Source of the DNA: Pseudomonadota bacterium
GTDB taxonomy: Bacteria; Pseudomonadota; Gammaproteobacteria; Steroidobacterales; Steroidobacteraceae
Direction: 5' to 3'
Assembly (NCBI GenBank): GCA_963204795.1
Contig: CAUJHX010000182.1
Span: 56,903-120,902, forward strand
DNA: 64,000 bases
Numbering within the stretch: the stretch's first letter is position 1; each line of letters starts with the position of its first letter. The notes below the pieces were generated by a model. That model ran no database searches. It was not told the origin of the DNA and saw nothing but the letters and a program-made list of their open reading frames with translations. This document shows positions 1,007 through 57,990 of this stretch, in pieces. The position numbers and the translations under genes were made by a program.

Positions 1007-1039
1007 GGCGGCGGAGCCTAAGTCGCTTTCGTCATCCGG

Positions 1040-2059: not shown

Positions 2060-2120
2060 ATGCGGAGGCTACCACGAGCAAGAAGCTCGCGGCTATGGGG
2101 CGTCTCTCCAGCTCGCCCAA

Positions 2121-5622: not shown

Positions 5623-5658
5623 CACTTCTTGTCCTTTCGGTCATCACTTCTTGTCCTT
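5615..5658. repeat. perfect 22-bp tandem duplication spanning the upstream-gene stop / thyX start junction
   Basis: Forward unit tcggtcatcacttcttgtcctt at 5615-5636 and again at 5637-5658. On the coding strand this is AAGGACAAGAAGTGATGACCGA x2. Confidence 0.9.
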
Positions 5659-5853
5659 GTAGAGCGCCGACTCGAAAGCTGACTCGGGGCGGAACACGCC
5701 GTTCGACGTGTTGGGCGCGGGCACCTCGTGCCTTCGCCCGCAGCGACACAGCCAGTAGAGGATCTCCGTGCCGTCGTCGTCGCAGACGGGCGTCTCAGGC
5801 TTGTGCGGGCAGCCCGTCAAGTCCTCCAGCATTAGATCGCTTCGTCGAGTCAT
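5644..5853 (-). CDS. small Cys-containing hypothetical protein (69 aa)
   Basis: ATG 5853 preceded by AGGAGAGCAAAGCT. Contains CPHKPETPVC and CRCGRRH. Confidence 0.6.
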   Translation of the reverse strand: MTRRSDLMLEDLTGCPHKPETPVCDDDGTEILYWLCRCGRRHEVPAPNTSNGVFRPESAFESALYKDKK

Positions 5854-5871
5854 AGCTTTGCTCTCCTGGCT

Positions 5872-6153
5872 TCAGTCGCGGCGCACCGTCACCGTGTAGC
5901 CAAGCTGCGCCATCGCTGTCCGCAGTGACTTGATGAACGCTGGTAGCGACTTCTCGGCAATCCCCACGCATTGCGTTACTCCATGCACAGATTGAGACAC
6001 CTGCAGCGTGTCGCTGTTCGGGCCGACGACTTCGACGAAAACCTTCTCGCTGCCGGTCGACACTTCCGTCAAGTAATCGAGATCGCTGGCGAGTCGATTT
6101 AGGGCCTCTTCTCCGAACCACTCCGTCACCTTCCTCTTGCCGATTCCGCTCAC
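5872..6153 (-). CDS. hypothetical protein (93 aa)
   Basis: I prefer GTG 6153, which makes a GTGA overlap with the upstream stop and has AGGAGG 5 nt upstream. The track start is 6195. Confidence 0.55.
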   Translation of the reverse strand: MSGIGKRKVTEWFGEEALNRLASDLDYLTEVSTGSEKVFVEVVGPNSDTLQVSQSVHGVTQCVGIAEKSLPAFIKSLRTAMAQLGYTVTVRRD

Positions 6154-6491
6154 TGTTTCCTCCTGGCTTCCGAACCCTTTGCGTCGCATATGCACAACCA
6201 GAGCGAGCCGTCTTCACGGCCGCGCTGGAGCACATGCTCTCGGTGCGAGCACTGGGCTTCTTCGAGCTTGCCGGCCGTCGTCCCGAGCTGCACCGCTTTG
6301 TCCACGCACTCCGGTCGAGGTCGATGTTCCCTCGACGTGTATCCGATGATGCCAACGAACGCCCCGGCCATGAATGCCACCCCGATGATGGTCTTCTCTC
6401 GTGCCAGGACGCGCACAGGTATGAGCCACCCAAAAGCGAGGACCGTGACGGCGCCAATCACGGTCCAGAGCGCGTCGCCCCAGGTGAACAT
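6150..6491 (-). CDS. small membrane protein (113 aa, two hydrophobic helices) with Cys-rich tail
   Basis: ATG 6491 overlaps the upstream TGA by 1 nt (TGATG). Starts MFTWGDALWTVIGAVTVLAFGWLIPV, then IIGVAFMAGAFVGIIGY. Confidence 0.6.
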   Translation of the reverse strand: MFTWGDALWTVIGAVTVLAFGWLIPVRVLAREKTIIGVAFMAGAFVGIIGYTSREHRPRPECVDKAVQLGTTAGKLEEAQCSHREHVLQRGREDGSLWLCICDAKGSEARRKQ

Positions 6492-7021
6492 CACGGCCCC
6501 CTTGCGTCGGCGCATGTGGCGCACTGATAGAATGACCCGGCGGGCAGCGAGAACCACGCCGGGGCGCGATCCCCGCAGTAGCGGCACCGCGCGCACACCT
6601 CGTCGAGCACCTCCTCCATCGAGGCGCAGATTGCGGTGTTCATCAGGTACATCAGCTCGGGCTCGCTGAGCGGATCGTCGAGTAGCACGACAGTCCGCTG
6701 ACCGTGGCCCGCTGCCCAGCCCAGCTCCAAGTGCGCGCTGCGCCCGCAGGGCAAGACCAACACGGTGACGTTGGCCGCAGCCAACGCGTTCATGTCCTTG
6801 TTGAAGCCAGCGCGCGCGACTGGGTGCGAGAGCACACGGTCTCGAAACAGCTTCGGATCCTTCAGGTGCTCGGGCGAGAGCGCGCACTGCGTCCAGCTGA
6901 ACCCGTCGTCTCCGGGCTCGGGATGCCTGAAGTCGTAGACCTCGTGGCCCGCTGCGCGCAGCTCCTGCACGACTGCTGGCTGCCTGGCGTTTTTCCAGCT
7001 GCTCGCGACATAGATCCTCAT
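6491..7021 (-). CDS. nucleoside 2-deoxyribosyltransferase-like protein with C-terminal Cys4 tail
   Basis: 176 aa. MRIYVASSWKNARQPAVVQELRAAGHEVYDFRHP and LPCGRSAHLELGWAAG match the pattern I recall for phage NDT-like proteins. C-terminus CARCRYCG...CATC. Confidence 0.55.
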   Translation of the reverse strand: MRIYVASSWKNARQPAVVQELRAAGHEVYDFRHPEPGDDGFSWTQCALSPEHLKDPKLFRDRVLSHPVARAGFNKDMNALAAANVTVLVLPCGRSAHLELGWAAGHGQRTVVLLDDPLSEPELMYLMNTAICASMEEVLDEVCARCRYCGDRAPAWFSLPAGSFYQCATCADARGP

Positions 7022-7191
7022 GGCTTGCTCTCCTCTGCGAGTCTCTTCAGCGCCTTGATGACGCGCTTCAGGTCGCTCACGTGTACGAATACGGCCTCGT
7101 CATTGGCGCTCGCCCAGACGTTCGCGCCCACCACGGTGCCCTCGGAGTACACCGCGGTCACAAGCTGTCGGTTGTCGGTCACGTGCGTCAT
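7018..7191 (-). CDS. small hypothetical protein (57 aa)
   Basis: Below the track cutoff. ATGA overlaps at both ends. Hand translation MTHVTDNRQLVTAVYSEGTVVGANVWASANDEAVFVHVSDLKRVIKALKRLAEESKP. Confidence 0.45.
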   Translation of the reverse strand: MTHVTDNRQLVTAVYSEGTVVGANVWASANDEAVFVHVSDLKRVIKALKRLAEESKP

Positions 7192-7394
7192 GGCCTGTGC
7201 TCCTTGTCGCCGACCAGTATGTTCAGGCGCTCTTCGATCTTCTTGACTGCGCTATCCGGCGAGCGAGCCCAGACGTGAATGCGCGGAGAGTCCAACGGGA
7301 AGCCCGCGAAGTCCTCGCTCGAAGCGAGACCCTCGGAGCCGTCCGCCCGGATCTCCAGCATGTGGCTGTGCAACACCAGGACGAAGTGTCTCAC
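7188..7394 (-). CDS. small hypothetical protein (68 aa)
   Basis: GTG 7394 makes a GTGA overlap with the upstream stop. Its stop overlaps the next ATG. Confidence 0.5.
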   Translation of the reverse strand: MRHFVLVLHSHMLEIRADGSEGLASSEDFAGFPLDSPRIHVWARSPDSAVKKIEERLNILVGDKEHRP

Positions 7395-7759
7395 CGCGCA
7401 TCCTCCGCTAGCTGCTTCAGCCGATTCTCGATGCGAATGTACTCATCGCGAGCAGCTGTACCGCGAGAGCACCCCAGGTTGGTTGCCAAGTCGCATGCGA
7501 CGGCAACGTAGACGTGCCGGGGTGGACCCGCGCGCTCCCCCGATCCCTTTTGCCTGGGACGGAACGGCGAGATCGCTTGCCCGCAAGCGCAGCACGCCAC
7601 CGTCACGGCAAGAGCTGCCTGGAGCAAGTCCTTGTCCATCAGTTGGCTGTTCAGCTCGATGCGTCGGCGCGGCTTCTGGTGGCCACCGTCGCGCGCGTAC
7701 ATTTCGATCTTGATGTACGGCGCGAGTCGCTCGAAAAGCGGGTGCACGGTGATGCTCAT
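7391..7759 (-). CDS. hypothetical protein (122 aa)
   Basis: ATGA overlap at 7756-7759. Contains a CCACG motif. Confidence 0.55.
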   Translation of the reverse strand: MSITVHPLFERLAPYIKIEMYARDGGHQKPRRRIELNSQLMDKDLLQAALAVTVACCACGQAISPFRPRQKGSGERAGPPRHVYVAVACDLATNLGCSRGTAARDEYIRIENRLKQLAEDAR

Positions 7760-8172
7760 TTCATCCTCCTGCCTTCTTCGATAGCCTTCGCCGCGCCGAC
7801 CAGAGCGTCCAGCGACGAGAACGCCGCGCCGACGGCGACGAGCGCCGCCTCCAGCTCATGTAGCCGTCGTTCATGCTGCGTCAGTGCCTGATCGCGCTCG
7901 GCAATCTTCAGTTGCAGCGGATCGCCTTGCGCCGCGGCGAGCCGATGGTAGGTCCGAGATGATTCGAGCTTTTCGCGCAGCTCGGACAACTCTCGCTCGT
8001 CTTTCGGCGCGAGCGCGATGCCGCTGCGTAGCGCGGCGTCTATCCGCTTGAGTAGCTCGTCCCCTTCGCGCAGCGATGGCCTAGTGTGCGCGGTCGGGCA
8101 GAGCGTCAGCTCTTCGAGCGCGGCCTGCATCCACTGGCGGCAGTCCAAAAGCAGCTCATCGCGGTTCGCCAC
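7756..8172 (-). CDS. coiled-coil hypothetical protein
   Basis: I prefer GTG 8172 (AGAAGGGGA RBS 6 nt upstream) over the track TTG 8202. Helical, heptad-like sequence. Confidence 0.5.
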   Translation of the reverse strand: MANRDELLLDCRQWMQAALEELTLCPTAHTRPSLREGDELLKRIDAALRSGIALAPKDERELSELREKLESSRTYHRLAAAQGDPLQLKIAERDQALTQHERRLHELEAALVAVGAAFSSLDALVGAAKAIEEGRRMK

Positions 8173-8515
8173 TGCTTGTCCCCTTCTTTTGTGCCGCCCC
8201 AAGGCGGCGCATGACCCGGCACGCCGCGTCCAGACGTGTGAGCTTGTCGTCGATCTCTGACTCCAGCAGAGCGTCGAAGGAATTGAGCAGCTCCATCGCG
8301 GCGCCCCATTTCTTCAAGGCCGCGTCCGTGAGCTTCTCGGCCCGTTTGCGCTCCGCGGCACTGGCGCGATCTGCTGCCCAGCGGATGGTTGACATGACCG
8401 TGCCGTCGTCGGCCTCGGTCGCTTTGTCGTAGGCGCGCTGGCAGGTTTGACAGAGAACCGCGCCGTAGCCGTCGCAGATGATGCAGACCCGCTGGGTCTT
8501 GGGCTTTGATCTCAC
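8156..8515 (-). CDS. hypothetical protein with N-terminal CxxC...CxxC
   Basis: GTG 8515 with GGAGG 5 nt upstream and a GTGA overlap. Contains CIICDGYGAVLCQTC. Confidence 0.55.
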   Translation of the reverse strand: MRSKPKTQRVCIICDGYGAVLCQTCQRAYDKATEADDGTVMSTIRWAADRASAAERKRAEKLTDAALKKWGAAMELLNSFDALLESEIDDKLTRLDAACRVMRRLGAAQKKGTSSGEPR

Positions 8516-8727
8516 GGAACCTCCATGAGCCTGTCGAGGCTAGTGATCGGCCCGCGACGCTGCTCTTGCAGCCGGGCGCTGCAGAGCGGGCACACCCAGC
8601 AGCCGCGCTCCTTCGTCCAGCCGTACGCGGCCCTGTGCTCGGGGGCACTGAACTTCCTGAGCTTCTTGCAGACGGGGCAGCGCTTCCTGAGCCCGTGCGT
8701 CCCCCGTTTCGCCGTCGCGCCGCGCAT
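8512..8727 (-). CDS. small zinc-ribbon-like protein (71 aa)
   Basis: ATG 8727 overlaps the upstream TGA (TGATG). Contains CPVCKK...CWVCPLC. Confidence 0.5.
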   Translation of the reverse strand: MRGATAKRGTHGLRKRCPVCKKLRKFSAPEHRAAYGWTKERGCWVCPLCSARLQEQRRGPITSLDRLMEVP

Positions 8728-10490
8728 CAGCATTTCCCTGCATTGAGCAACACGCGGCAAAAGTCGTCGCAGCATTCATGGTGACCAGACCACGGCACGT
8801 GCGCCGCGCACCATGCGCGAACGCGGTCATGGAAGTGCTCGGCGTGCGCAGCCCTGGCGCCGCAGCCCGGCCTCTCACAGGTCAGAGGCGCGACGTACTT
8901 CGCGCAGTCCGGGTGGTGGTAGTTGGGGTGCAGGTCCGGCCAGTAGGCGCTCGCGGGATGGCCAACCTGAGTCCAGTCCAGGCATTCGCAGTCGGGGCGA
9001 GCCGCAGCGGAAGCTCCAGCGGGCGCGGCGGGACCCCAGTCAGCAAGCCCTGTCACGGCACGGTTGACGGCTCCGCAATCGACGCACGCGTCATGGTCGT
9101 TCTCGCAGCGTCGGTGCTTGTGGTCACAGCCTCCGGCGGGCTTAGGTGGGTCCGCCGTGGCCACGGTCGGGCCTGGCATCAAACGGCCACCGTCATGCGC
9201 GGCACCTGAGCCGCCGGAGGTTTCTTCGGGGGATTCGAGGGCGCGGATGGCGGCGTGCCACGGCAGCAGCGGCCAGTCGCCGCCGTGCTCGTCGCAGAAC
9301 GTCGTGTAGCCGTCCGAGCGCGTGCTGCGCGCGGCGCAGCCGAATCTGTGTTCGCACCGAGGCAACGCCTCCACCACCGCCTCGTGTCGCGCAAGACGGG
9401 CGCGGAGGTCACGGATGCGAGTCGCCTCTGGTTGCCCGGTGAAGCCGGCTCCACACTCGTTCAGCGCGGCTTGCGCATCCTCGACCCGCCGCCCCAACGT
9501 GTCCCGCTCCGACCGCGCCGCGTCCCGCTCCTTGCTCATCCTTCGCATCTGCGCCGCGCTCACGATGTGCGCGACGTCGGCAGCGTCGAGGCCGCACGCT
9601 TCGGCCACCGTGGCGCCGAGCGCCTTCCACTCGTTGCGGACTTCGTCCCGCTCCGCGATGGCCTTGGCGTGGTCATGCGCTACGGACTCGATGCGCGCCG
9701 TGAGCACCACCTGCTCGCGGTCCCAGGCTTCGCGCTCGCGGTCGAGACAATTAAGCGCAGCATCCCGCTCGCCCACCACGCGAATGTTGTCCTGCTCAGA
9801 GCTGTGGAGTTGATCCGCAAGAAGACTTCTCTCCCCGAGGATGCGTTCGACCACCTCGGCGACGGTTGCTGCGCCCTTCGGGTGAAAGTCCTCGTCGCGA
9901 CCGACGAGCAGATCCTTAACCGCCTGCAGTTCGCGCTCGATCACGCTCGTTCGCTTGTTCTCGGCCACGATGCCTCCTTCAAGAGCAGCGATCCGAGCCC
10001 CGTAGACTTCCAGCTTCCGGTTTGCGTAGTCGAGAGCCTCGCGCGACGAGTTCATGCGGCTAGGCAGCGCGTCTCGCAAGATCGTGATGAACTCCTCCGC
10101 GGCCTCCGTCGGCGTGTAGCCCTCGCCCATCTCGATGGTGCCGTCGGGCTTGAAACACACCACCGGCTTGTTGTTCATCGCGAACCTGAGAGTGCCGGCC
10201 TCAAAAGCGTCCTTGAAGAAGTACACTCGCCCGACGGAGTCGGGCAGCGATGGGGCGGCTTCGGCTGACCCGGTGAGATGGATCACGTCCTCTGATGCGT
10301 AGATGACGCCCGCCTCCTCTCGATAGCCGCTAAGCCCGTCGCAAGCCGGGCTCCGCGACGTATCGTACTGCCACCCAGCGCATCCGTCTTCTCCGCAGTC
10401 GCAAGGCACCGCGTCGCCGTTCTCGAAAAAGAACTCGCGCGTGATGCCTGACTTCTTGCAGTAGCCGTCGATGAACTCGTCGCGCGTCAT
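8727..10490 (-). CDS. large coiled-coil protein with ERD-rich repeats and Cys/His-rich termini
   Basis: 587 aa from ATG 10490 (ATGA overlap; the track ORF extends upstream in a shadow region). Motifs GERDAAL, REREAWDRE, AERDEVR, KERDAARSERD. C-terminus rich in C/H (DHKHRRCENDHDACVDCG...HHECCDDFC). Confidence 0.65.
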   Translation of the reverse strand: MTRDEFIDGYCKKSGITREFFFENGDAVPCDCGEDGCAGWQYDTSRSPACDGLSGYREEAGVIYASEDVIHLTGSAEAAPSLPDSVGRVYFFKDAFEAGTLRFAMNNKPVVCFKPDGTIEMGEGYTPTEAAEEFITILRDALPSRMNSSREALDYANRKLEVYGARIAALEGGIVAENKRTSVIERELQAVKDLLVGRDEDFHPKGAATVAEVVERILGERSLLADQLHSSEQDNIRVVGERDAALNCLDREREAWDREQVVLTARIESVAHDHAKAIAERDEVRNEWKALGATVAEACGLDAADVAHIVSAAQMRRMSKERDAARSERDTLGRRVEDAQAALNECGAGFTGQPEATRIRDLRARLARHEAVVEALPRCEHRFGCAARSTRSDGYTTFCDEHGGDWPLLPWHAAIRALESPEETSGGSGAAHDGGRLMPGPTVATADPPKPAGGCDHKHRRCENDHDACVDCGAVNRAVTGLADWGPAAPAGASAAARPDCECLDWTQVGHPASAYWPDLHPNYHHPDCAKYVAPLTCERPGCGARAAHAEHFHDRVRAWCAAHVPWSGHHECCDDFCRVLLNAGKC

Positions 10491-11380
10491 AGCTTCACCT
10501 CGAAGTAGCGTGGCAAATGCTCCATTGTGCGCGCGAGCCGCGACACGAAGTGCTCCGGCACCGCGAGCCCCGCCAAGACCGGGACAGCGGCGCGCAGCGA
10601 CAGCAGCGCCGCCTCGGCTGGCCCATTCGCTTGCGGGTGAGCAATGTCCCAGCCGACCTCTTGGTAGGCATCCAGCATCACTAGCTTCGCCATCTCGGTG
10701 TCCGCGAGCGCCAGGACCAACGCGGTCGCCCAGAGGGCCTGCTGCTCCTGCGACCACGCCCACGTATCGCGGAAGTTACCGAAGCGCAATCGCTCGCGCA
10801 GCTCGGGCGCCATCACCTTTGGGCCGACGCGCGTCAGGAACCTGACCTGCGTGTCGTCGAACCGCTCGTCTCGCAGCATATGCGAGCAGCAGAGCACCCA
10901 GAGGCGCGCGCGCTCCTTGCCGTTCCTGATGATCGTTTCGGGGGACACTAAACCGAAGGACCATCCGCTCAGCGCTTCGGGGTCCGGGAGCGGATAGGAA
11001 GCTGACTCAATCAGCGCGGGCCCCATGCACTTGAGCCACGCGGCGGGGTGGGCCTCCAGGCACTCTCCTAGTAGTGCCTGCGCGAAGCCCGATGCGGCTG
11101 TCACGCCGAGCCCGCCAAGCGACAAGATGCCAGGGCCAATGGCGTGGACCCCGTCCACCGTGCCGTTCCCCACTGCGGCCGACAAGGCGTAGACCTTAGT
11201 CCAGAAGTTGCTGTTCTTGTCGGCCGTCGGCCGTCGCGTTCCCACGGCGTACCACCCAGCATATGAGCCGACGTTGGCCCAGCGCAGCCAGACGTCTCCG
11301 TGGTCCGTTCGTCCCGGAGCATCGTTCGGAAGGTCGAACGGATCGTCCACGAGACCAGCAACGCGGTACGGCGACGCCAT
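10487..11380 (-). CDS. hypothetical protein, first gene of the leftward operon (297 aa)
   Basis: ATG 11380 has no SD. It lies 8 nt downstream of the TAGCAG -10 element and 1 nt from the GCTAGC pair. Confidence 0.65.
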   Translation of the reverse strand: MASPYRVAGLVDDPFDLPNDAPGRTDHGDVWLRWANVGSYAGWYAVGTRRPTADKNSNFWTKVYALSAAVGNGTVDGVHAIGPGILSLGGLGVTAASGFAQALLGECLEAHPAAWLKCMGPALIESASYPLPDPEALSGWSFGLVSPETIIRNGKERARLWVLCCSHMLRDERFDDTQVRFLTRVGPKVMAPELRERLRFGNFRDTWAWSQEQQALWATALVLALADTEMAKLVMLDAYQEVGWDIAHPQANGPAEAALLSLRAAVPVLAGLAVPEHFVSRLARTMEHLPRYFEVKL

Positions 11381-11381
11381 T

Positions 11382-11396
11382 GCTAGCTCTGCTAGC
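11382..11396. repeat. tandem palindrome GCTAGC-N3-GCTAGC (site 1 of 4)
   Basis: GCTAGC at 11382-11387 and 11391-11396. The same architecture occurs at 24041-24055, 53299-53313 and 57026-57040. Confidence 0.9.
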
Positions 11397-11417
11397 TGGG
11401 ATAGCCTCGGAAGTCAA
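11389..11417 (-). promoter_or_regulatory. leftward promoter candidate, leaderless design
   Basis: On the minus strand: TTGACT (11417-11412), N17, TAGCAG (11394-11389), N8, ATG 11380. Confidence 0.55.
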
Positions 11418-11453
11418 GGGTTCCGCGGGTGACATTCCCTGTCCGTGCCGCCG

Positions 11454-14136: not shown

Positions 14137-14165
14137 TTGACTCTCCCGAGCGTTACATGTAACGC
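14137..14165 (+). promoter_or_regulatory. promoter candidate overlapped by a 14-bp perfect palindrome (operator candidate)
   Basis: TTGACT (14137-14142), N17, TAACGC (14160-14165). The palindrome CGTTACATGTAACG at 14151-14164 overlaps the -10 element. Confidence 0.4.
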
Positions 14166-15161: not shown

Positions 15162-16108
15162 GCGAGAGCCAGGACGAGCGTGGCGCTGGTGGATTGGTGC
15201 CGCTCAGCGAGGTGATGATGGAACACCTGAAGCCGGCGCACGACGCGATGAGGGCTCGACGCCTGGAATGGTGGTCGCAGCGCGAGATCGCTGACGGCGC
15301 GAAGGAGAAGGGCTGGCGCTGGGTGCGAAAGCTGATCCTGCCGGCCGACGTCACGCGCGAAGAGATCGCAGCGCTTGAGCCGGTGCTGCAGTGGGCGCAA
15401 GAGCGGCTGGATCAGTGCAGCACATGTCCGAAGACCGGCGGCGCGTGCGACGTGGATTACTACATGGGCGCGGGTGAAGGCACCGCGCCGGTGTGGAACG
15501 CCGAGACGCGCGATGTCGAGTTCAAGCCGTGCGCACGGTTCTACGAGCACCGCATCCGCTTGCGACTCGCCGGCTTCGGAGTGCCAGAGGTTCTGCTTGG
15601 TGCGAACTTCGACAACTTCAGCGTCAGTGACGAGCTGCGCGCCGAGATGCAGGCGTATGTCGCTAGCTTCAAGGACGTAGGCGCGAAGGGCTACTACCTG
15701 AACGGCAGCGTCGGTACAGGCAAGAGCCATCTGGCCGCAGCGATAACGCGAGCGCTCGTCGAGAAGCGGATCATTGGCTCGGCCTACTTCGCGTACGTGC
15801 CGAAGTTCTTCGACGAGATCCGAAACAACTTCGACCGTCCCGTCGAAGAACGCGACGAGTTCATGCGGCGCGTGCTGCAGTGCGATCTGCTCGTGATGGA
15901 TGACCTGGGCGCGGAGCGAACGACCGAGTGGGTGCGCGACCAGCTCGGGATCATCATCCACATGCGCTGGGCGAACCAGAAGCCAGTGCTGGTCACAAGC
16001 AACCGGACTTTGGAAGAGTACCGAGAGCTGCTCGGTGAGCGCGCCTACTCGCGCTTGCGCTCGCTGACTCCGTATCGTCGCCTCGTCGGAGGCACGGACC
16101 AGCGATGA
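15158..16108 (+). CDS. DnaC/IstB-like AAA+ helicase loader
   Basis: 316 aa from ATG 15158 (ATGA overlap). Walker A GSVGTGKSHLAAAI and Walker B LLVMDDLGAE. Confidence 0.8.
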   Translation: MSESQDERGAGGLVPLSEVMMEHLKPAHDAMRARRLEWWSQREIADGAKEKGWRWVRKLILPADVTREEIAALEPVLQWAQERLDQCSTCPKTGGACDVDYYMGAGEGTAPVWNAETRDVEFKPCARFYEHRIRLRLAGFGVPEVLLGANFDNFSVSDELRAEMQAYVASFKDVGAKGYYLNGSVGTGKSHLAAAITRALVEKRIIGSAYFAYVPKFFDEIRNNFDRPVEERDEFMRRVLQCDLLVMDDLGAERTTEWVRDQLGIIIHMRWANQKPVLVTSNRTLEEYRELLGERAYSRLRSLTPYRRLVGGTDQR

Positions 16109-18825
16109 CGCAGTCGACGTCGAACGGCGGACGCATGCCGCCCCATAGCCTGGACGTGGAAGCAGCGGTGCTCTCCGCGGTCTTCCTCGATGCGACCGGA
16201 GCGAGGCTCGATGAAGTTCGCACCGTTGTGCGACCGGAGACGTTCTACAGCCGCGCGCACGGGATCATCTTCGAGGCGGTGTGCGCGCTCGCGGACCGCG
16301 GCGGACAGATCGACGTCGTCACTGTGTTGCAGATGCTGCGCGACCAAGGACGCGCCGAGCAGGTTGGCGGGGCCGCCTACTTGGCTCAACTGGTCGACGC
16401 GACGCCGGCAATCGCGAACGTCCAGGAGCATGCGCGCATCCTGCGAGAGCACCATCGGGTGCGGCAGACTGTGCACCTCGCGCAGCGTATCGCCGCAGAG
16501 GGCTACTCCACCATCGGCACCGACCCCGCTGGCGTGCAGAAGTGGCTTGAAGGCTGCGAGGCTTCGATAGCCGATCTGGTTCACGTTCACGAAGAGCGCA
16601 CGCTCGCTCCGATGCCCGTGGTCATGGACGAGACCGCGGCCATGTTGGACGCAATCAAGTCCGGCGGCGCAGCGGGCGTGCCCTCGGGGTTCACCGAGGT
16701 CGACGCGCAGACGAGCGGCCTACACGACGGCGACTTCTACATCATCGCGGCGCGACCAGGCATGGGGAAGAGCGCATACGCGCTGAGCATGGCCGCGCGC
16801 ATGGCCGCTGCAGGTTACGCCGTCCCGTTCTTCTCGATTGAGATGCCGCGTGTGCAGCTCGGCGCTCGCCTCGTCGCGATGGATGCTCGCGTGGACCTGA
16901 AGCGCATGCGCGAGCAGTCGTTCCCGCCATCGGAACGGCAAAAGGCAGACGCAAGCATGAAGCTGCTGCGCGACCTGCCACTCTTCATCGACGACTCCGC
17001 GGTGCTCACGCCACTCGACATCAAGGCGCGCGTGAAACGCATCCAGCGCGAGGTCGCTGGCGGTAAGCACCCGAACGTCACGACCGGTCGAATCGGCGCC
17101 GCCTTCATCGACTACTTGCAGCTCGTGCGGCCTACGCGCGATACGCACTCGCGCGAGCAAGACGTGGCAAGCATTGGTCGCGACCTGAAGATCCTGTCCA
17201 AGGTCTTGGGCATTCCAATCATCGCGCTCTGCCAGTTGAACCGTGAAGTCGAGAAGCGCGTCGAGAAGAGGCCGCAGCTCAGCGACCTTCGCGAGTGCGT
17301 TACAGGCGACACGCTTGTGGTCTTAGCAAATGGGTCACGAGTGCCAATTAGTGCGCTAGTGGGCACGCGCCCGAAGGTGTGGGCTTACGAGAGCGACAAA
17401 CTCCGTCTCGCGGAGACTGAAAAGGTGTGGTGCGTCGGCACTCGGCCAACACTGACGATCACCTTGGCAAGCGGGCGTGAGGTGCGATGCACAGCACAGC
17501 ACAGGCTTCTCACCGGAAGAGGCTGGCTGACGGCGCGACGAATGCAACCGGGTGATCGCGTGGCGCTGGCGCGCAAGATTCCCGCTCCCAAGCGGGCGAC
17601 GAAGACTAAGCGTTCGAGACTGGCGCTTCTGGCACATCTAATCGGAGACGGTAGTTGCCTGAAGAAGCAGAGCATCAGGTACACGACCGCAAGCGAGGAG
17701 AACTCGCGCATCGTGGCACGTGCAGCTCGGGAATTTGGAGCGACGGCCAAACGCTACCCGTATCACCAAGGCAAGTGGTGGCAGCTTACACTCTCGGACG
17801 CATCCAATCGGTGGCACTACGGGCCGCTGCGCGCCTGGCTGCGGGACCTTGGTGTTCTCGGCCAGCGCTCCAGCGACAAGCGCGTGCCCGACGTGGTCTT
17901 CAGAGGCAGCAACAAGGACATCGCGTTCTTCTTGGGCCACCTATGGGCGACAGATGGCACGATAGCGCTGCGACGCAGCGGGAGGGGGCCGATCAACATC
18001 TCGTTTTCCACGAGCAGCCGCGCTCTCGCCGCCGACGTGTCGGCACTGCTTCTGCGGTTGGGGATCGTGGCTCGGGTGAGTTGCGTCAAAAGCGACGGGT
18101 GCTTCATGGTCAGGGTCTCTGGGGCCGCCGCGCAGCTGGCGTTCCTGGGATCGGTTCCGGCTGTTGGCCCAAGACGAGCGCAGGCCCGTCGCGCCCTGAA
18201 GCTCCTGAGCGGCATGACTGCGAACACCAACGTAGACACTGTGCCGCGGGAAGTCTGGGAAAGGGTGCGCTCGCGAATGCGAGAGCAAGGAATTACCCAG
18301 CGCGGCATGACTGCGTTGCGTGGCACAGCTTACGGCGGCGACTCGCACTTCAGGTTTGCCCCGTCACGAGCGCTGCTCAGTGAGTACGCCGAACTGCTAG
18401 ACGACCAAGGGTTGCGCGACGAGGCGTCGAGTTGCCTGTTCTGGGATCGCGTGACCTCAATCAAGCCAGCCGGCAGGGAGAAAGTATACGACATCACGGT
18501 GCCGGGTCCGGCGTCCTGGCTCGCCGACGGGATTGTGTCGCACAACTCCGGCGCGCTCGAACAGGAAGCTGACGGGATCTATTTCATCTACCGGCCCTCG
18601 TACTACGACCGCGGCAAGAACCCGGACCCGGCGCTCAAGGGCTGGGCCGAGATCATCGTGGCGAAGCAGCGCAACGGGCCGACCGGGACGCGTCGAGTCG
18701 CGTTCCGCGAAGACTGCACGCGGTTCGACAACCTTCAGCCTGGGGACGTTGGCATCTACGACGACAAGGATGCCGAGGTCCGCCGCGACTGGCACAGTGA
18801 CAATGACTTTGAGGAGGACATGTGA
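16105..18825 (+). CDS. dnaB: replicative DNA helicase DnaB, intein-containing precursor
   Basis: 906 aa. N-terminal PPHSLDVEAAVLSAV. Walker A ARPGMGKSAYAL. The LSDLRE / SGALEQEADG motif is split by an insertion that starts CVTGD and ends VSHN. Confidence 0.9.
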   Translation: MTQSTSNGGRMPPHSLDVEAAVLSAVFLDATGARLDEVRTVVRPETFYSRAHGIIFEAVCALADRGGQIDVVTVLQMLRDQGRAEQVGGAAYLAQLVDATPAIANVQEHARILREHHRVRQTVHLAQRIAAEGYSTIGTDPAGVQKWLEGCEASIADLVHVHEERTLAPMPVVMDETAAMLDAIKSGGAAGVPSGFTEVDAQTSGLHDGDFYIIAARPGMGKSAYALSMAARMAAAGYAVPFFSIEMPRVQLGARLVAMDARVDLKRMREQSFPPSERQKADASMKLLRDLPLFIDDSAVLTPLDIKARVKRIQREVAGGKHPNVTTGRIGAAFIDYLQLVRPTRDTHSREQDVASIGRDLKILSKVLGIPIIALCQLNREVEKRVEKRPQLSDLRECVTGDTLVVLANGSRVPISALVGTRPKVWAYESDKLRLAETEKVWCVGTRPTLTITLASGREVRCTAQHRLLTGRGWLTARRMQPGDRVALARKIPAPKRATKTKRSRLALLAHLIGDGSCLKKQSIRYTTASEENSRIVARAAREFGATAKRYPYHQGKWWQLTLSDASNRWHYGPLRAWLRDLGVLGQRSSDKRVPDVVFRGSNKDIAFFLGHLWATDGTIALRRSGRGPINISFSTSSRALAADVSALLLRLGIVARVSCVKSDGCFMVRVSGAAAQLAFLGSVPAVGPRRAQARRALKLLSGMTANTNVDTVPREVWERVRSRMREQGITQRGMTALRGTAYGGDSHFRFAPSRALLSEYAELLDDQGLRDEASSCLFWDRVTSIKPAGREKVYDITVPGPASWLADGIVSHNSGALEQEADGIYFIYRPSYYDRGKNPDPALKGWAEIIVAKQRNGPTGTRRVAFREDCTRFDNLQPGDVGIYDDKDAEVRRDWHSDNDFEEDM
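17296..18546 (+). mobile_element. DnaB intein (417 aa) with LAGLIDADG homing-endonuclease domain
   Basis: Cys1 is precursor aa 398 (counted). The intein ends with His-Asn and is followed by a +1 Ser. LAGLIDADG-like blocks LLAHLIGDGSC and FFLGHLWATDGT. GC is visibly lower than the flanking exteins. Confidence 0.85.
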
Positions 18826-20923: not shown

Positions 20924-20940
20924 TGGCGGTGACGCGTTCT

Positions 20941-21010: not shown

Positions 21011-21032
21011 AGAGCGCGTCACATGCAAGCCT

Positions 21033-23068: not shown

Positions 23069-23326
23069 ATGGGCACTTGGCGGCGGCGCTCAAGCGCGGG
23101 CCTCAAGCTGCGGCTGAGCAAGCCGCCGAAGGAACGCGAAACGCTCTCGCCCTGCCCGGCGTGCGGCGGGTCCGGCGTGTGCTTGCTGCAGCCTGCGACC
23201 GGGTCATATCGCCAGGTGCAGTGCCGCTGGTGCGAGGGCCGCGGGTACGTGGATTCCGCGATGCTGTCGGCACACGCCAGGTGGCTTCGCATCCTGCGGT
23301 GGAACCGAGCGGTGGGCGCGTGCTAG
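23069..23326 (+). CDS. DnaJ-type zinc-finger mini-protein (2 x CXXCXGXG)
   Basis: 85 aa. Contains CPACGGSG and CRWCEGRG. Confidence 0.6.
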   Translation: MGTWRRRSSAGLKLRLSKPPKERETLSPCPACGGSGVCLLQPATGSYRQVQCRWCEGRGYVDSAMLSAHARWLRILRWNRAVGAC

Positions 23327-23329
23327 CCT
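23300..23329 (+). promoter_or_regulatory. promoter candidate, leaderless design
   Basis: TGGAAC (23300-23305), N18, TAGCCT (23324-23329), N7, GTG 23337. Confidence 0.35.
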
Positions 23330-23862: not shown

Positions 23863-24045
23863 ATGCGTCATCGCGCCCCCAGGTGCCCTCACGGTCTATA
23901 CTCGGGGCTCTGCCCGCTCAGGGACTGCCCACACTGGGACGGGGTCACGGACCAGCACGCGGCTGCTCGCACGATCAAGCACGACGCATGGGGGAAGAGC
24001 CAGCGGCGCCGTGGGTCGAAGAAAACTGAGCCGCGAGCTAGCTAG
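23863..24045 (+). CDS. small Cys/His protein (60 aa)
   Basis: C-terminal part of track ORF 23566-24045. Starts MRHRAPRCPHGLYSGLCPLRDCPHW. Its TAG stop lies inside the GCTAGCTAGC motif. Confidence 0.35.
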   Translation: MRHRAPRCPHGLYSGLCPLRDCPHWDGVTDQHAAARTIKHDAWGKSQRRRGSKKTEPRAS

Positions 24046-24055
24046 CTGTGCTAGC
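24037..24055. repeat. GCTAGC cluster incl. GCTAGC-N3-GCTAGC (site 2 of 4)
   Basis: GCTAGC at 24037, 24041 and 24050. ATG 24067 lies 11 nt downstream with no SD. Confidence 0.9.
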
Positions 24056-33418: not shown

Positions 33419-33424
33419 GGAAGC

Positions 33425-53277: not shown

Positions 53278-53306
53278 TTGCAGCAAGCCGAGCAAGCGGC
53301 TAGCTT
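53278..53306 (+). promoter_or_regulatory. promoter candidate, leaderless design, -10 embedded in the GCTAGC pair
   Basis: TTGCAG (53278-53283), N17, TAGCTT (53301-53306), N10, ATG 53317. The 15-bp palindrome GGCTTGCAGCAAGCC (53275-53289) overlaps the -35. Confidence 0.5.
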
Positions 53307-53313
53307 GGCTAGC
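53299..53313. repeat. tandem palindrome GCTAGC-N3-GCTAGC (site 3 of 4)
   Basis: GCTAGC at 53299-53304 and 53308-53313. ATG 53317 lies 3 nt downstream with no SD. Confidence 0.9.
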
Positions 53314-55987: not shown

Positions 55988-57030
55988 TCCGCCTCTACGG
56001 TCACCACAAGGGCGAGAGTTCATTCGTCCAGGTCACCCGTGGCCTGCGAGCGGCGGCCAAGTCGGCCGAGCTGCTCGCAGGCGAGGTCGCCGTGGACATG
56101 CTGGAGCAGGAACGCGTGCAGCCGGGAGCAGACGCTCTCGTTGGGCTCTTCTGTGGCGCCCCGCTCAGCATCGCTCTGGGGCCGCGTATGGGGCTGCACA
56201 AGGAACACTGGTTGCTGCTCGCCCCGAACAGCGAAGGGATCCCACCGTTCCTGAGAGAGCCGCTGTCCGCGGCGACAGGGTTCCTGGCCCCCAGCTCGTG
56301 GGCCGCCGACGTCTTGCGGCGTGAGTTTCCGTCACACCGGGTGCTGGTCGCTCCGCACGGCGTGCACCCGGATGTGCATATGCCCTCGGAAGAGGACCGC
56401 GAAGCGCGAACCAAGGAATACTCGGCCGGCACGTTTCGCGTTGCGCACTTCACGAGCACGCTGGGCCAGCGCAAAGGGACACTGCAGCTCCTGAGCGCAT
56501 GGAGGAACTGGTCCGAGAAGCCAGCGGGAGCACAGTTGCTCATCGTGGCCAACCCGCTCGCGGTCAACGAGTACCTGTGGCGAGCGAAGGAAATGGGGGT
56601 AGATCCAAAGACGGTGGGCGTCGTCGCGAATCCGGAGGCGCCAGTCTCCGCGCTGGCGGCAGCGCTGCGTCACGCTCACGTCGTCTGCCAGCCATCGCGC
56701 GCAGAGGGCTTTGGGATCGTGCCGCTCGAAGCTCGGGCTTGCGGCGTTCCGGTCGTGATGACGAAGTGCACCGGACACCGTGAATTTTGGAGCCCGCAAG
56801 GCACCGTCACGGTCGCACACGGCGACCTGGAGCCGCTCGACGACTACCCGGGGGCCGTGGCGCCGTCTGTGTCATCTGAAGCCATCCGGCTGGCGCTTTC
56901 CGAAGCCTTTGAGACCTGGCTCGCGCTGTCCGATGAAGCGGCGCGCGACGCCGACTCTGTGCGCTGGGAATGGTCGTGGCAGAAGCAGAATGCACCGGTG
57001 CTCCAAGAGCTGGTTGACGGGGCGCGCTAG
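55984..57030 (+). CDS. GT4-family glycosyltransferase
   Basis: 348 aa from GTG 55984 (GTGA overlap). Contains SRAEGFGIVPLEARACGVPVVMT (the classic GT4 EX7E region) and FTSTLGQRKG. Confidence 0.75.
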   Translation: MIRLYGHHKGESSFVQVTRGLRAAAKSAELLAGEVAVDMLEQERVQPGADALVGLFCGAPLSIALGPRMGLHKEHWLLLAPNSEGIPPFLREPLSAATGFLAPSSWAADVLRREFPSHRVLVAPHGVHPDVHMPSEEDREARTKEYSAGTFRVAHFTSTLGQRKGTLQLLSAWRNWSEKPAGAQLLIVANPLAVNEYLWRAKEMGVDPKTVGVVANPEAPVSALAAALRHAHVVCQPSRAEGFGIVPLEARACGVPVVMTKCTGHREFWSPQGTVTVAHGDLEPLDDYPGAVAPSVSSEAIRLALSEAFETWLALSDEAARDADSVRWEWSWQKQNAPVLQELVDGAR

Positions 57031-57042
57031 CCGAGCTAGCAG
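57014..57042 (+). promoter_or_regulatory. promoter candidate, leaderless design, -10 embedded in the GCTAGC pair
   Basis: TTGACG (57014-57019), N17, TAGCAG (57037-57042), N7, ATG 57050. Confidence 0.5.
57026..57040. repeat. tandem palindrome GCTAGC-N3-GCTAGC (site 4 of 4)
   Basis: GCTAGC at 57026-57031 and 57035-57040. The first copy contains the TAG stop of the GT gene. Confidence 0.9.
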
Positions 57043-57049: not shown

Positions 57050-57385
57050 ATGTCCGACAAAGAGGATCTGGTCAGCAAGAACTACTGGTATTGGTTCGAC
57101 GGCAAGCCTGTCTTGGTGCAGCTACACGAGCCGTGGGTGGGCGTGACCTACCCGAACGATCCGGTGCTGCAGAAGGACGAGAGCGGCAAGCCCGTCGGAG
57201 TTGTGACGGTCCCTTTTCTCAAGGGGATCTGCCACGTGCACCCCGACGGTGACGACGTGATGTTCGTGCTGGAGACGACAGACCCCAACCCGAACGCCCG
57301 CGCCATGGCGTTCATTGCGATTCGTCGCGAGCTGGTCGCCTTCATCACGCATATCGAAAGGCGCCTCGTAGAGCCGTCAGCGTGA
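57050..57385 (+). CDS. hypothetical protein (111 aa)
   Basis: Starts MSDKEDLVSKNYWYWFDGKPV. No SD; leaderless-type context. Confidence 0.55.
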   Translation: MSDKEDLVSKNYWYWFDGKPVLVQLHEPWVGVTYPNDPVLQKDESGKPVGVVTVPFLKGICHVHPDGDDVMFVLETTDPNPNARAMAFIAIRRELVAFITHIERRLVEPSA

Positions 57386-57990
57386 AGAAGTTCCGCCTCT
57401 GGTTGATCGCCCGGGTGGCAGAGACGAAGTACGCGCGCGATCCGGTGGCCGACGATGCTGCGCTGGAAGCCCTAGCGCAGAAGATGGGTTTGCAGCCGGA
57501 CTTGCTGGCAGAGGCCAGAGTGCGCGCTCGCACGCTGGGTCGCGCGCCGACCGGGCAGAACCAGGGGGACCGAAGGCTGGTGGCGGTGTCCTGTGCCGAG
57601 GCTCCGTACCGGGCCTGGGAGAAACATGTGGACACGTGGGGAGGCATCAGCCAGTCGGACCTATTGCGCTCCCTGATCTATGCCTACCTCTGCGGCACGT
57701 ACGAGCCTCCGTGTGAGCGACTGACGCGGCTCTGGGTCTGGGACGGGAGGCACGTGACGGTCACCAGGATCAAGGGGCGCCCGGCGTACTCGATTCACAG
57801 CTTCATCAAGCGCGGCGCGTACGTGGCCTTGGTGGAACGCGCGCGGCGCCTGAACCACACGGTGACAGCGCTCCTGCGCGCGCTTATCCTGGAGAACATG
57901 GATGGCCGGTTCGGTCAGCGCGGCGCCTTGACGATTCTGGATCTGCGCAGCATGCCGGGAGACCCGGAGTTCTACCTGAAGGGGCAGTGA
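57382..57990 (+). CDS. possible tandem ribbon-helix-helix DNA-binding protein (202 aa)
   Basis: GTGA overlap. Two segments show a strand-helix-helix pattern: RRLVAVSCAEAPYRAWEKHVDTWGGISQSDLLRSLIYAYL and KRGAYVALVERARRLNHTVTALLRALILE. Confidence 0.35.
   Translation: MKKFRLWLIARVAETKYARDPVADDAALEALAQKMGLQPDLLAEARVRARTLGRAPTGQNQGDRRLVAVSCAEAPYRAWEKHVDTWGGISQSDLLRSLIYAYLCGTYEPPCERLTRLWVWDGRHVTVTRIKGRPAYSIHSFIKRGAYVALVERARRLNHTVTALLRALILENMDGRFGQRGALTILDLRSMPGDPEFYLKGQ

What the first reader, a model, noticed from the sequence alone, without database searches (positions are those of the whole stretch)
11382..11396. GCTAGC-N3-GCTAGC tandem palindrome recurs at four operon starts, 1-11 nt from SD-less start codons
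Exact GCTAGC pairs with 9-nt phasing occur at four sites. They are 11382/11391 (1 nt from ATG 11380 on the minus strand), 24041/24050 (plus a third copy at 24037; ATG 24067), 53299/53308 (ATG 53317) and 57026/57035 (ATG 57050).

All four lie at module boundaries and none of the downstream genes has a Shine-Dalgarno. Because GCTAGC is self-complementary, each pair is both a direct and an inverted repeat. It could form a 6-bp stem with a 3-nt loop in RNA or ssDNA. In three sites it also contains the -10 hexamer.

Single GCTAGC copies elsewhere lie mostly inside genes. This looks like a dedicated operator or RNA element for a phage regulator.
Basis: seen in the sequence. Interest (0 to 1): 0.7.

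Follow-up and report, generated by a model that had tools for sequence, protein, structure and literature searches.

The report
GCTAGC repeat arrays inside phage promoters
Two to three copies of the 6-bp palindrome GCTAGC, exactly 9 bp apart, sit over the -10/start-site region of a few promoters in this uncharacterised soil virus and at matching places in its distant relatives, which points to a conserved transcription switch whose binding protein is not yet known.

Summary
There are four exact GCTAGC-N3-GCTAGC sites in the window, against none in 100 shuffles.

The motif is conserved. In 535 kb of related metagenomic DNA, 155 GCTAGC copies form 30 pairs at a spacing of exactly 9 nt, 7 at 13 nt, and almost none at other spacings (about 0.07 expected per spacing).

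The arrays are tied to promoters, not to start codons. In 19 of 26 unique arrays a TTGNNN hexamer (12 of them TTGAC) ends exactly 15 nt before one unit. That unit's TAGC therefore lies 17 bp from the -35-like hexamer. The layout is -35, N6, U1, N3, U2, N3, U3, N0-3, ATG.

In some relatives the same array keeps this register while the start codon lies 37-46 nt further on, behind a Shine-Dalgarno. In one relative a pair fills the spacer of a promoter that has its own TACCAT -10.

The best reading is a family-wide operator array built into host-type promoters, many of them for leaderless or near-leaderless transcripts.

Window gene 57382-57990 encodes a confidently modelled protein with two ribbon-helix-helix (RHH) modules in one chain and an N-terminal three-helix domain. 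It is a candidate binder. However, its beta-ribbons vary across the family while GCTAGC does not. An RNA hairpin and a translation element are unlikely.

The parts
11382..11405 (-). S1 array, read on the minus strand: U1 GCTATC (11405-11400), cca, U2 GCTAGC (11396-11391), aga, U3 GCTAGC (11387-11382). One nt later comes ATG 11380 of the 297-aa gene that heads the leftward arm.
   Evidence: The same three-unit array is present in relatives L064, L065, L067, L068, L079 and L103.
11412..11417 (-). -35-like hexamer TTGACT of S1. It ends 6 nt before U1 and 15 nt before U2.
   Evidence: register statistics.
24037..24055 (+). S2 array: GCTAGC at 24037 overlapping 24041 (U1), tgt, GCTAGC 24050 (U2, which reads TAGCTT with the next two bases). 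Then 11 nt to ATG 24067. There is no TTG hexamer in register.
   Evidence: An equivalent lies upstream of the homologous operon in L131: TTGACG-t-GCTAGC-N7-GCTATC-atg-GCTAGC-cg-ATG.
53278..53313 (+). S3 promoter cassette: TTGCAG (53278-53283), N15, U2 GCTAGC (53299-53304; TAGCTT), ttg, U3 GCTAGC (53308-53313), gca, ATG 53317 (197-aa Cys-rich protein). The U1 position is degenerate (GAGCAA).
   Evidence: Conserved upstream of the orthologous gene in L001, L002, L062 and L025/L049.
57014..57040 (+). S4 promoter cassette: TTGACG (57014-57019), N6, U1 GCTAGC (57026-57031, which holds the TAG stop of glycosyltransferase gene 55984-57030), cga, U2 GCTAGC (57035-57040; TAGCAG). The U3 position is degenerate (GCAGCG) and ATG 57050 follows it directly.
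   Evidence: Conserved in L001 and L003, and with one mismatch in L002. Absent in L014, L049 and L062.
23322..23327 (+). Single GCTAGC in a promoter-like, leaderless setting: tGCTAGCCT, 7 nt, GTG 23337. No flanking units.
   Evidence: read by eye.
57382..57990 (+). Candidate binding protein, 202 aa, second gene of the S4 operon. It has an N-terminal three-helix (HTH-like) domain and two RHH modules in one chain.
   Evidence: AlphaFold2 model with mean pLDDT 93.6: E64-71/H73-84/H91-104 and E136-143/H144-156/H161-173. Foldseek against viral models: archaeal-virus RHH-annotated proteins and transcriptional regulators including AvtR, probability 0.69-1.0, TM 0.5-0.7 on the target. Foldseek against PDB: TraY chains, probability 0.57-0.75, E-values not significant. 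Conserved beside the recombinase gene across the family. Binding to GCTAGC has not been shown.

Best explanation
The GCTAGC units are binding units for a sequence-specific DNA-binding protein that is conserved across this virus family. They are arrayed two to four times at a 9-bp phase directly over the core of sigma-70/sigma-A-type promoters.

The layout is -35 (TTGACN), N6, U1, N3, U2, N3, U3, N0-3, start codon. The middle unit U2 also sits where the -10 belongs: G at -14, then TAGC at -12 to -9, followed by A or T. U1 lies in the spacer. U3 covers the predicted start site.

Host RNA polymerase would start at or just after U3. In the window this gives leaderless transcripts or leaders of 1-4 nt, which explains the missing Shine-Dalgarno.

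Occupancy of the array by the factor would block the -10 and start site and shut off a small regulon together. In the window that regulon is the leftward arm (S1), a small-gene operon (S2), the operon of the 197-aa protein and glycosyltransferases (S3), and the operon that holds the 202-aa twin-RHH protein and leads to the 1554-aa recombinase-like gene (S4).

What is shown: the arrays, their phase, their fixed register to the TTGNNN hexamer, and their conservation at orthologous positions. What is inferred: that these are promoters, where transcription starts, that a protein binds, and that binding represses. The identity of the binder is open; the 202-aa protein is a candidate at about 0.25-0.3.
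For: (1) Non-randomness. There are 4 exact pairs in the window against 0 in 100 shuffles. Across 535 kb of non-redundant family DNA there are 30 pairs at spacing 9, 7 at 13, 4 at 18, one each at 8 and 17, and none at any other spacing from 6 to 20, against about 0.07 expected per spacing. 56 of 155 copies belong to 9-nt pairs. No other 6-bp palindrome behaves this way.

(2) Conservation at orthologous positions.
- S1: relatives whose 297-aa protein is 82% down to about 39% identical all carry the array in the divergent region between the RecE gene and the 297-aa gene.
- S3: present in L001, L002, L062 and L025.
- S4: present in L001-L003, although the residues before the stop codon differ (GAR* versus EAG*).

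(3) Fixed promoter register. 19 of 26 unique arrays have a TTGNNN hexamer ending exactly 15 nt before a unit (12 are TTGAC). Offsets unrelated to the 9-nt periodic images give 0-4. Of 23 unique TTG-N18-GCTAGC sites, 21 have a flanking unit within one mismatch, and the base after U2 is A or T in 21 of 23.

(4) The arrays follow the promoter, not the start codon. L067, L068 and L097 have the same register with 37-46-nt leaders that carry a Shine-Dalgarno.

(5) Operator-like placement. In L014 at 19299 a pair fills the 17-bp spacer of TTGACA...TACCAT, a promoter with its own -10.

(6) Local promoter style. Other starts in the window have TAGNNT 6-9 nt upstream of the start codon, and one has TTGACC-17-TAGGCT (by eye). 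This is the leaderless style known from Actinobacteria (my own knowledge).

(7) Precedent. RHH repressors bind tandem short palindromes or 4-bp boxes at a fixed phase over promoters, for example the MetJ 8-bp met-box and ParG ACTC boxes (PMC3413123). AvtR, which has two RHH motifs in one chain, binds several conserved sites in its virus genome and oligomerises along DNA (PMC5569661).

(8) The window encodes such a twin-RHH protein inside the S4 operon.
Against: There is no experimental start site and no binding data.

An E. coli-type consensus scan finds no promoter at any of the four sites. The implied -10 hexamers often lack the T at -7 (TAGCAG, TAGCAA, TAGCGA).

The very strict register and the invariance of GCTAGC across proteins only 30-50% identical are more typical of a core promoter element than of an immunity operator, which usually diverges quickly.

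The candidate protein's two beta-ribbons differ from each other and are its least conserved segments (entropy 2.8-2.9 bits against 1.6-2.0 for the B helices). That fits poorly with reading an invariant, perfectly symmetric hexamer.

No Pfam DNA-binding domain reaches threshold in any window protein.

The 13-nt spacing variant is hard to reconcile with rigid cooperative binding.
Confidence: 0.55

Rival explanations
1. The arrays are a positive promoter element. GCTAGC in the -10 position is the recognition sequence of a virus-encoded activator, sigma-like factor or sigma-appropriating factor that defines a temporal class of promoters, in the manner of T4 middle and late promoters. The extra units serve for cooperative loading rather than repression.
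For: The register to the -35-like hexamer is fixed. U2 is nearly invariant while U1 and U3 come and go. The -10 is non-canonical, with no T at -7 in about three quarters of sites, and the consensus scan finds nothing. The motif is conserved across very divergent relatives, as is typical of phage class-specific promoters (my own knowledge).
Against: No sigma or RNA polymerase domain was found in any window ORF by Pfam, although about half of the roughly 120-kb genome lies outside the window. Units also occur away from the -10: L014 at 19299 fills the spacer of a promoter that has its own TACCAT, and the first unit of L131 at 3558 abuts the -35. Self-complementary units in tandem are typical of repressor operators. 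Binding over -14 to +1 normally blocks the polymerase.
Confidence: 0.25
2. The motif works as an RNA or extruded ssDNA hairpin (6-bp stem, 3-nt loop) that acts on mRNA stability, processing or translation, or serves as an N4-type hairpin promoter.
For: The hairpin can form: -6.9 kcal/mol as RNA and -4.2 as DNA for the bare 15-mer. Its geometry matches the 5-7-bp stem and 3-nt loop of N4 virion-polymerase promoters (my own knowledge).
Against: Five units with one mismatch (GCTATC, GATAGC, GCTTGC, GCTAGG, GCTGGC) are not compensated in the partner unit; four break a base pair and one leaves a G-U wobble. Spacings of 4, 8 and 13 nt and arrays of three or four units do not fit one hairpin. The loop sequence, including its central base, is not conserved. 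If U2 is the -10, only the last unit would be transcribed from that promoter. The distance to the ATG ranges from 0 to 46 nt. Rfam has no match. No giant virion polymerase was recognised.
Confidence: 0.05
3. The motif is a translation-start element that replaces the Shine-Dalgarno, like the start-associated sequences of Cluster K mycobacteriophages.
For: In the window the arrays end 1-11 nt before start codons that lack a Shine-Dalgarno. Many downstream genes begin ATGTCCGAC.
Against: In relatives the array stays with the -35 hexamer while the start codon moves 37-46 nt away and gains a Shine-Dalgarno. The motif is symmetric and contains no anti-Shine-Dalgarno complement. There are only four sites in 64 kb.
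Confidence: 0.05
4. The pairs are chance or a by-product of coding (for example Leu-Ala-Glu-Leu-Ala codons) or of restriction-site biology (GCTAGC is the NheI site).
For: One pair in relative L139 (6255) is indeed inside a coding region that reads LLAELA. An unrelated tailed phage (the L087 group) carries one TTGACA-N6-pair that is within chance expectation for a scan of the whole collection.
Against: The statistics. The hexamer is neither depleted nor enriched overall. The four window sites lie between genes, apart from the first S4 unit, which overlaps only the stop codon of the upstream gene.
Confidence: 0.02

Closest known systems
MetJ met-box arrays, and more generally operators of RHH repressors (ParG, omega, Arc/Mnt, CopG)
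   Same: A short self-complementary unit (met-box AGACGTCT, 8 bp) is repeated head to tail at a fixed phase, two to five times, over a promoter. One protein unit binds per repeat, and cooperativity is set by the protein scaffold (PMC3413123).
   Different: Here the unit is 6 bp at a 9-bp phase, with a 13-bp variant. One unit is locked to the -10 position of the promoter. The binder is unknown. The only RHH protein recognised here is a single-chain twin-RHH whose two ribbons are unlike each other.
AvtR of Acidianus filamentous virus 6 (twin-RHH viral regulator) and TraY of the F plasmid
   Same: Both have two RHH motifs in one polypeptide. AvtR binds DNA as a monomer, binds several conserved sites in the virus genome, represses its own gene and oligomerises along DNA (PMC5569661). 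The model of the 202-aa protein matches an AvtR-annotated and other RHH-annotated archaeal-virus proteins and TraY chains.
   Different: This is structural similarity only; the PDB matches are not significant by E-value. The 202-aa protein has an extra N-terminal three-helix domain and a C-terminal tail. The AvtR site is a 16-bp imperfect inverted repeat, not a tandem hexamer. Binding has not been tested here.
Stoperators of Cluster A mycobacteriophages (L5 gp71)
   Same: One short motif is dispersed through a phage genome in short intergenic gaps near gene starts as well as at an early promoter, giving genome-wide control of transcription by one protein (my own knowledge; contrasted with SAS in PMC3203893).
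   Different: Stoperators are 13-bp asymmetric single sites, orientation-dependent, and number 20-30 per genome. The GCTAGC arrays are symmetric, multi-unit, few, and in fixed register with a -35 hexamer.
Start-associated sequences (SAS) of Cluster K mycobacteriophages
   Same: A conserved short repeat lies within a few nt of start codons of non-structural genes, is conserved across subclusters, and has no known function (PMC3203893).
   Different: SAS is asymmetric, contains the Shine-Dalgarno core AGGAG, occurs at many sites per genome and stays with the start codon. The GCTAGC array has no Shine-Dalgarno, is symmetric and stays with the promoter.
Leaderless promoters of Actinobacteria (TANNNT 6-8 nt before the start codon)
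   Same: Start codons without a Shine-Dalgarno lie 7-10 nt after a TA-containing hexamer that is 17 bp from a TTGACN. Other TAGNNT-plus-start pairs occur in the window.
   Different: The T at -7 is often missing, and the hexamer is embedded in a repeated palindrome. The host is unknown.

Membership tests
Tandem-repeat operator of the RHH type (MetJ, ParG, omega-like) | A short core (4-8 bp) repeated at a fixed phase, two or more copies | tested here: met
   30 pairs at exactly 9 nt, 7 at 13 nt, about 0 at other spacings in 535 kb. Arrays of three and four units occur.
Tandem-repeat operator of the RHH type (MetJ, ParG, omega-like) | The array overlaps the core promoter of the regulated operon | tested here: inconclusive
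   The register to a TTGNNN hexamer is fixed in 19 of 26 arrays, but no start site is known and the consensus scan is negative.
Tandem-repeat operator of the RHH type (MetJ, ParG, omega-like) | A cognate RHH protein is encoded by the element and binds the repeats | not testable with these tools
   A twin-RHH protein is encoded. Binding needs EMSA or footprinting.
Tandem-repeat operator of the RHH type (MetJ, ParG, omega-like) | The base-reading beta-ribbon is conserved wherever the repeat sequence is conserved | tested here: not met
   For the 202-aa candidate, the beta-1 and beta-2 segments have the highest entropy (2.8-2.9 bits) of all segments in a 62-sequence alignment, while GCTAGC is invariant.
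Sigma-70/sigma-A housekeeping promoter | A -35 hexamer like TTGACA, 17 +/- 1 bp from the -10 | tested here: met
   TTGACT (S1), TTGCAG (S3) and TTGACG (S4) lie 17 bp from TAGC. S2 has none. 12 of 26 family arrays have TTGAC in register.
Sigma-70/sigma-A housekeeping promoter | A -10 hexamer TANNNT (A at -11, T at -7) | tested here: inconclusive
   S2 and S3 read TAGCTT, which fits. S1 and S4 read TAGCAG, which does not. T at -7 occurs in only 6 of 23 family sites. The E. coli-type scan finds 0 at all four sites.
Sigma-70/sigma-A housekeeping promoter | Transcription starts 6-8 nt after the -10 | not testable with these tools
   Needs start-site mapping.
Cluster K start-associated sequence (SAS) | Asymmetric 13-mer containing the AGGAG Shine-Dalgarno core, 3-7 bp from the start codon, and staying with the start codon in relatives | tested here: not met
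   The unit is symmetric and has no Shine-Dalgarno core. In L067, L068 and L097 the array is 37-46 nt from the start codon. The definition comes from PMC3203893.
Cluster A stoperator | Single asymmetric 13-bp site, one orientation relative to transcription, dozens per genome | tested here: not met
   The units are symmetric, multi-unit, and form four sites in 64 kb.
N4-type hairpin promoter | 5-7-bp stem, 3-nt loop with a conserved central purine, fixed distance to the start site, giant virion RNA polymerase | tested here: not met
   The stem and loop sizes fit. The loop centre varies among G, T, C and A. Spacings of 8 and 13 nt exist. No polymerase domain was found in the window. The family definition is from my own knowledge.
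Any described RNA family (Rfam 15) | A match at the gathering score | tested here: not met
   There were 0 matches in the whole window.

The most novel reading that the evidence does not exclude
The arrays are the cis-signature of a transcription switch shared by a whole, so far undescribed lineage of soil and sediment viruses of about 90-140 kb. That lineage has no recognisable capsid, portal or terminase genes in this window and carries giant 1300-1600-aa recombinase-like proteins. In this reading one 6-bp palindrome serves both as the -10 element of leaderless promoters and as the docking unit of a single-chain twin-RHH regulator (AvtR/TraY-like, with an added HTH domain). That type of regulator is so far characterised in archaeal viruses and conjugative plasmids, not in bacterial viruses.
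Probability: 0.2. Interest if true: 0.7.

Novelty: new variant of a known kind. Interest (0 to 1): 0.55.

Why it matters
The arrays give a ready-made, testable handle on gene regulation in a virus lineage about which nothing is known.

- They mark the starts of transcription units.
- They define a small co-regulated gene set.
- They provide a 15-27-bp probe for fishing out the regulator.

The motif survives across relatives whose proteins are only 30-50% identical. It can therefore also be used as a sequence signature to recognise members of this lineage in metagenomes. One pattern scan of IMG/VR pulled out nine family contigs.

If one unit really acts both as the -10 and as an operator unit for leaderless promoters, that is a compact design of interest for synthetic promoters in high-GC hosts.

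Tried and rejected
Searches that found nothing useful:
- Known phages: megablast of 10 kb and tblastn of the 812-aa protein against INPHARED gave no match.
- IMG/VR with the single S1 and S3 proteins: no relatives.
- Host identity: the genome-contig scan returned only two MAG contigs, labelled Pirellulales and Elusimicrobia. The window has no tRNA genes. The host stays unresolved.
- Rfam: no match.

Leads that did not hold:
- Relatives L067 and L068 encode small RHH_1-like proteins (68-71 aa) next to RecT, which looked like the obvious repressor. They have no tblastn homologue in the window or in closer relatives.
- The 297-aa product of the first S1 gene was modelled (pLDDT 75). It has no meaningful PDB fold match and no DNA-binding hint.
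- Pfam over every predicted window protein, with small ones concatenated, found no HTH, sigma or polymerase domain above threshold.
- A PDB sequence-profile search with the 202-aa family gave only weak hits (YiiF RHH at E = 0.17).
- The pattern scan 'pair + N0-12 + ATGTC' in IMG/VR returned mostly random coding hits.
- An unrelated tailed phage (the L087 group) carries TTGACA-N6-pair. I judged this to be chance.

Ideas rejected:
- N4-like hairpin promoter (see rivals).
- Recombination site for the giant recombinase-like protein: 6-3-6 is too short, and the sites track promoters.
- Methylation or restriction target: the hexamer is neither enriched nor depleted.

Full report
**Observation.** The pattern GCTAGC-N3-GCTAGC occurs exactly four times in the window, at 11382, 24041, 53299 and 57026. 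None of 100 dinucleotide-preserving shuffles has any match. The hexamer alone is not enriched, with 18 copies against 15 expected. What is special is the pairing: 9 of the 18 copies sit in the four sites. The stated distances to start codons are correct. S1 carries a third unit with one mismatch. The four downstream genes lack a GGAG-like box, while many other genes in the window have one.

**Context.** The window is 66% G+C. A codon-model gene map shows a leftward arm (1-11380) and a rightward arm (11552-63597) that diverge from a 171-nt control region holding S1. Recognisable genes are:
- RecE/YqaJ, RecT, DnaC and an intein-bearing DnaB
- a ThyX-like protein and dTMP kinase
- DnaJ and a dual-specificity phosphatase
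- two glycosyltransferases
- a 1554-aa protein with a tyrosine-recombinase domain

No capsid, portal, terminase, sigma factor, RNA polymerase or classical repressor was recognised. Nothing similar exists among deposited phage genomes. Relatives are found only in metagenome assemblies and IMG/VR, on contigs up to about 138 kb. The host is unknown.

**Conservation.**
- Using the recombinase-like protein as an anchor, I fetched relatives at 84%, 80% and 62% identity. S3 is present in the 84% and 62% relatives; the 80% locus does not reach that far upstream. S4 is present in all three, with one mismatch in the 62% relative. The flanks and even the amino acids before the stop codon that overlaps U1 have changed.
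- Using the first S1 gene as an anchor, relatives from 82% down to 39% identity all carry the array in the same divergent region. In L065 the gene caller had placed the start too far upstream. The protein alignment shows that the real start follows the array directly.
- More distant relatives (recombinase-like protein 28-52% identical over the best-matching segment) also have arrays. These include the S3 equivalent in L062 and L025/L049 and an S2 equivalent in L131.
- S4 is missing in L014, L049 and L062, where the gene junction has a Shine-Dalgarno or an overlap instead. Sites are therefore gained and lost.

Over 535 kb of non-redundant family DNA, 155 copies make 30 pairs at 9 nt, 7 at 13 nt and 4 at 18 nt. 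There is one pair each at 8 and 17 nt, and none at any other spacing from 6 to 20 (expected about 0.07 each). No other 6-bp palindrome shows this behaviour.

**Architecture.** Aligning the sites shows one layout: TTGACN, N6, U1, N3, U2, N3, U3, N0-3, start codon.
- In 19 of 26 unique arrays a TTGNNN hexamer ends exactly 15 nt before a unit (12 are TTGAC). Offsets unrelated to the 9-nt periodic images give 0-4.
- That unit's TAGC therefore lies 17 bp from the -35-like hexamer, where a -10 belongs.
- Its G lies at -14, and the base after it is A or T in 21 of 23 sites.
- U2 is almost never alone: a flanking unit within one mismatch is present in 21 of 23 sites.

The window sites are variants of this layout:
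- S1 has U1 (one mismatch), U2 and U3.
- S3 has U2 and U3.
- S4 has U1 and U2.
- S2 has U1 and U2 but no -35.

With U2 as the -10, the predicted start falls at the last base of U3. The start codons 0-3 nt later would then give leaderless transcripts or leaders of 1-4 nt. That explains the missing Shine-Dalgarno. It also fits other starts in the window that have TAGNNT 6-9 nt upstream (by eye).

**Promoter, not start codon.** In L067, L068 and L097 the array keeps its register to the -35 hexamer while the start codon is 37-46 nt further on, behind a Shine-Dalgarno. This separates the motif from translation initiation. In L014 (19299) a pair fills the 17-bp spacer of TTGACA...TACCAT, a promoter with its own -10. 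That is the classical position of a repressor operator, and it shows that the units have a role beyond supplying a -10.

**Caveats on the promoter reading.** An E. coli-type consensus scan calls no promoter at any of the four sites. The hexamers TAGCAG, TAGCAA and TAGCGA lack the T at -7. The strict register and the invariance of the motif over large evolutionary distances would also suit a class-specific promoter element read by a virus-encoded activator or sigma-like factor. I keep that as the main rival.

**Hairpin reading.** The 15-mer can fold (-6.9 kcal/mol as RNA). Against it:
- Single-base departures in one unit are not compensated in its partner; four break a pair and one leaves a G-U wobble.
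- Loops are not conserved.
- Spacings of 4, 8 and 13 nt and arrays of three or four units exist.
- Most of the array would not be transcribed from its own promoter.
- Rfam has no match.

**Candidate binder.** Pfam gives only sub-threshold RHH_1 hits. An exhaustive search finds 128 family clusters. A 62-sequence alignment gives a confident AlphaFold2 model (pLDDT 93.6), with an N-terminal three-helix domain followed by two strand-helix-helix modules.

Foldseek matches the tandem module to RHH-annotated proteins and regulators of archaeal viruses, including one annotated AvtR (probability 0.69-1.0, TM 0.5-0.7 on the target). It also matches TraY of the F relaxosome, although those PDB E-values are not significant. 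AvtR is a single-chain twin-RHH protein that binds several conserved sites in its virus genome, represses its own gene and spreads along DNA (PMC5569661). RHH repressors such as MetJ and ParG bind tandem short units at a fixed phase over promoters (PMC3413123).

The gene is conserved next to the recombinase-like gene across the family. However, its two ribbons are unlike each other and are the least conserved parts of the protein. That is hard to square with an invariant, perfectly symmetric hexamer. The best-conserved stretches are the N-terminal FRxWL and LGVxPDxLxEAR segments and the B helices. I therefore rate it only a candidate, at about 0.25-0.3. A small RHH protein seen in two distant relatives has no homologue here.

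**Verdict.** It is most likely an operator array built into host-type promoters of leaderless or near-leaderless operons, shared by a whole uncharacterised virus lineage. The kind of element is known: tandem-unit operators over promoters. The sequence, the dual use of one unit as the -10, the strict architecture and the lineage are new.

Noticed in passing
window 20926-21022 (+): A very stable structured element lies in the 144-nt gap before gene 21068. The sequence contains three GTAA-centred repeats of the GGCCC-GTAA-GGGCC type, closed by outer arms GTGACGCG...CGCGTCAC. The predicted minimum-free-energy fold is a long outer stem enclosing two inner hairpins with 5-nt loops. Folded as RNA it gives -68.8 kcal/mol, z = -8.8 against shuffles. 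Rfam has no match. Its function is unknown.
   Followed up: partly
window 58933-63597 (+); homologues P0001-P0093: A 1554-aa protein has a tyrosine-recombinase domain within its first ~530 aa (Pfam catalytic-domain match at aa 462-530, PHROG integrase match at aa 223-530) and a conserved extension of about 1000 aa. At least 93 homologues of 978-1618 aa occur on metagenomic contigs up to 138 kb. This is an unusual giant recombinase-like family and a hallmark of this lineage.
   Followed up: partly
window, whole; especially 32744-36457 and 45428-47284: No capsid, portal, terminase or tail gene was recognised by Pfam (all ORFs) or PHROGs (20 ORFs, including the largest) in 64 kb. Instead there are runs of proline-rich proteins with C-terminal hydrophobic stretches that look like membrane anchors (read by eye), and weak peptidoglycan-binding hits. 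The nature of the particle is open.
   Followed up: no
window 11428-11444 (read on the minus strand: GGACAgggaaTGTCACC): A second conserved palindrome, GACA-N5-TGTC, lies about 10 bp upstream of the S1 -35 hexamer. It is perfect in relative L067 (GTGACAggaaaTGTCAC) and recognisable in L064, more weakly in L065. It may be the operator of another regulator of the divergent control region.
   Followed up: partly
window 14150-14165: A perfect 16-bp palindrome, GCGTTACATGTAACGC, lies shortly after a TTGACT hexamer in the 168-nt gap between RecT and gene 14214. Distant relatives encode a small RHH_1-like protein at this position.
   Followed up: no
window 43333-43356: A 24-bp near-palindrome, GTTACGTGgGCTAGCtCACGTAAC, is centred on a single GCTAGC. 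It is followed by a GC-rich hairpin flanked by A and T runs that looks like a terminator.
   Followed up: no
window 16105-18825 (+): The DnaB-like helicase is 906 aa because it carries an intein with a LAGLIDADG endonuclease (Pfam on the L064 orthologue). Distant relatives have intein-free DnaB of 478-482 aa.
   Followed up: partly
window starts at 1006(-), 2059(-), 19796, 21068, 21555, 23337, 58933; also 39990-40063: Many genes without a Shine-Dalgarno have TAGNNT 6-9 nt before the start codon. One long-leader promoter reads TTGACC-17-TAGGCT (by eye). This is the promoter and leaderless style known from Actinobacteria and hints at the host group.
   Followed up: no
starts at window 27811, 53317, 57050; L011, L014, L062, L025: A striking number of genes that follow arrays or hairpins begin with ATGTCCGAC (Met-Ser-Asp). 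I did not test whether this is a composition effect or a feature of leaderless translation.
   Followed up: no
L071 (NCBI GCA_963169065.1, contig CAUJGG010000040.1) and Logan contigs L070, L072, L073: Several public assemblies encode a 202-aa protein identical to the window's, with the same gene order around it. The longest contig on record is 122.7 kb. A near-complete genome of this virus probably exists in public data.
   Followed up: partly
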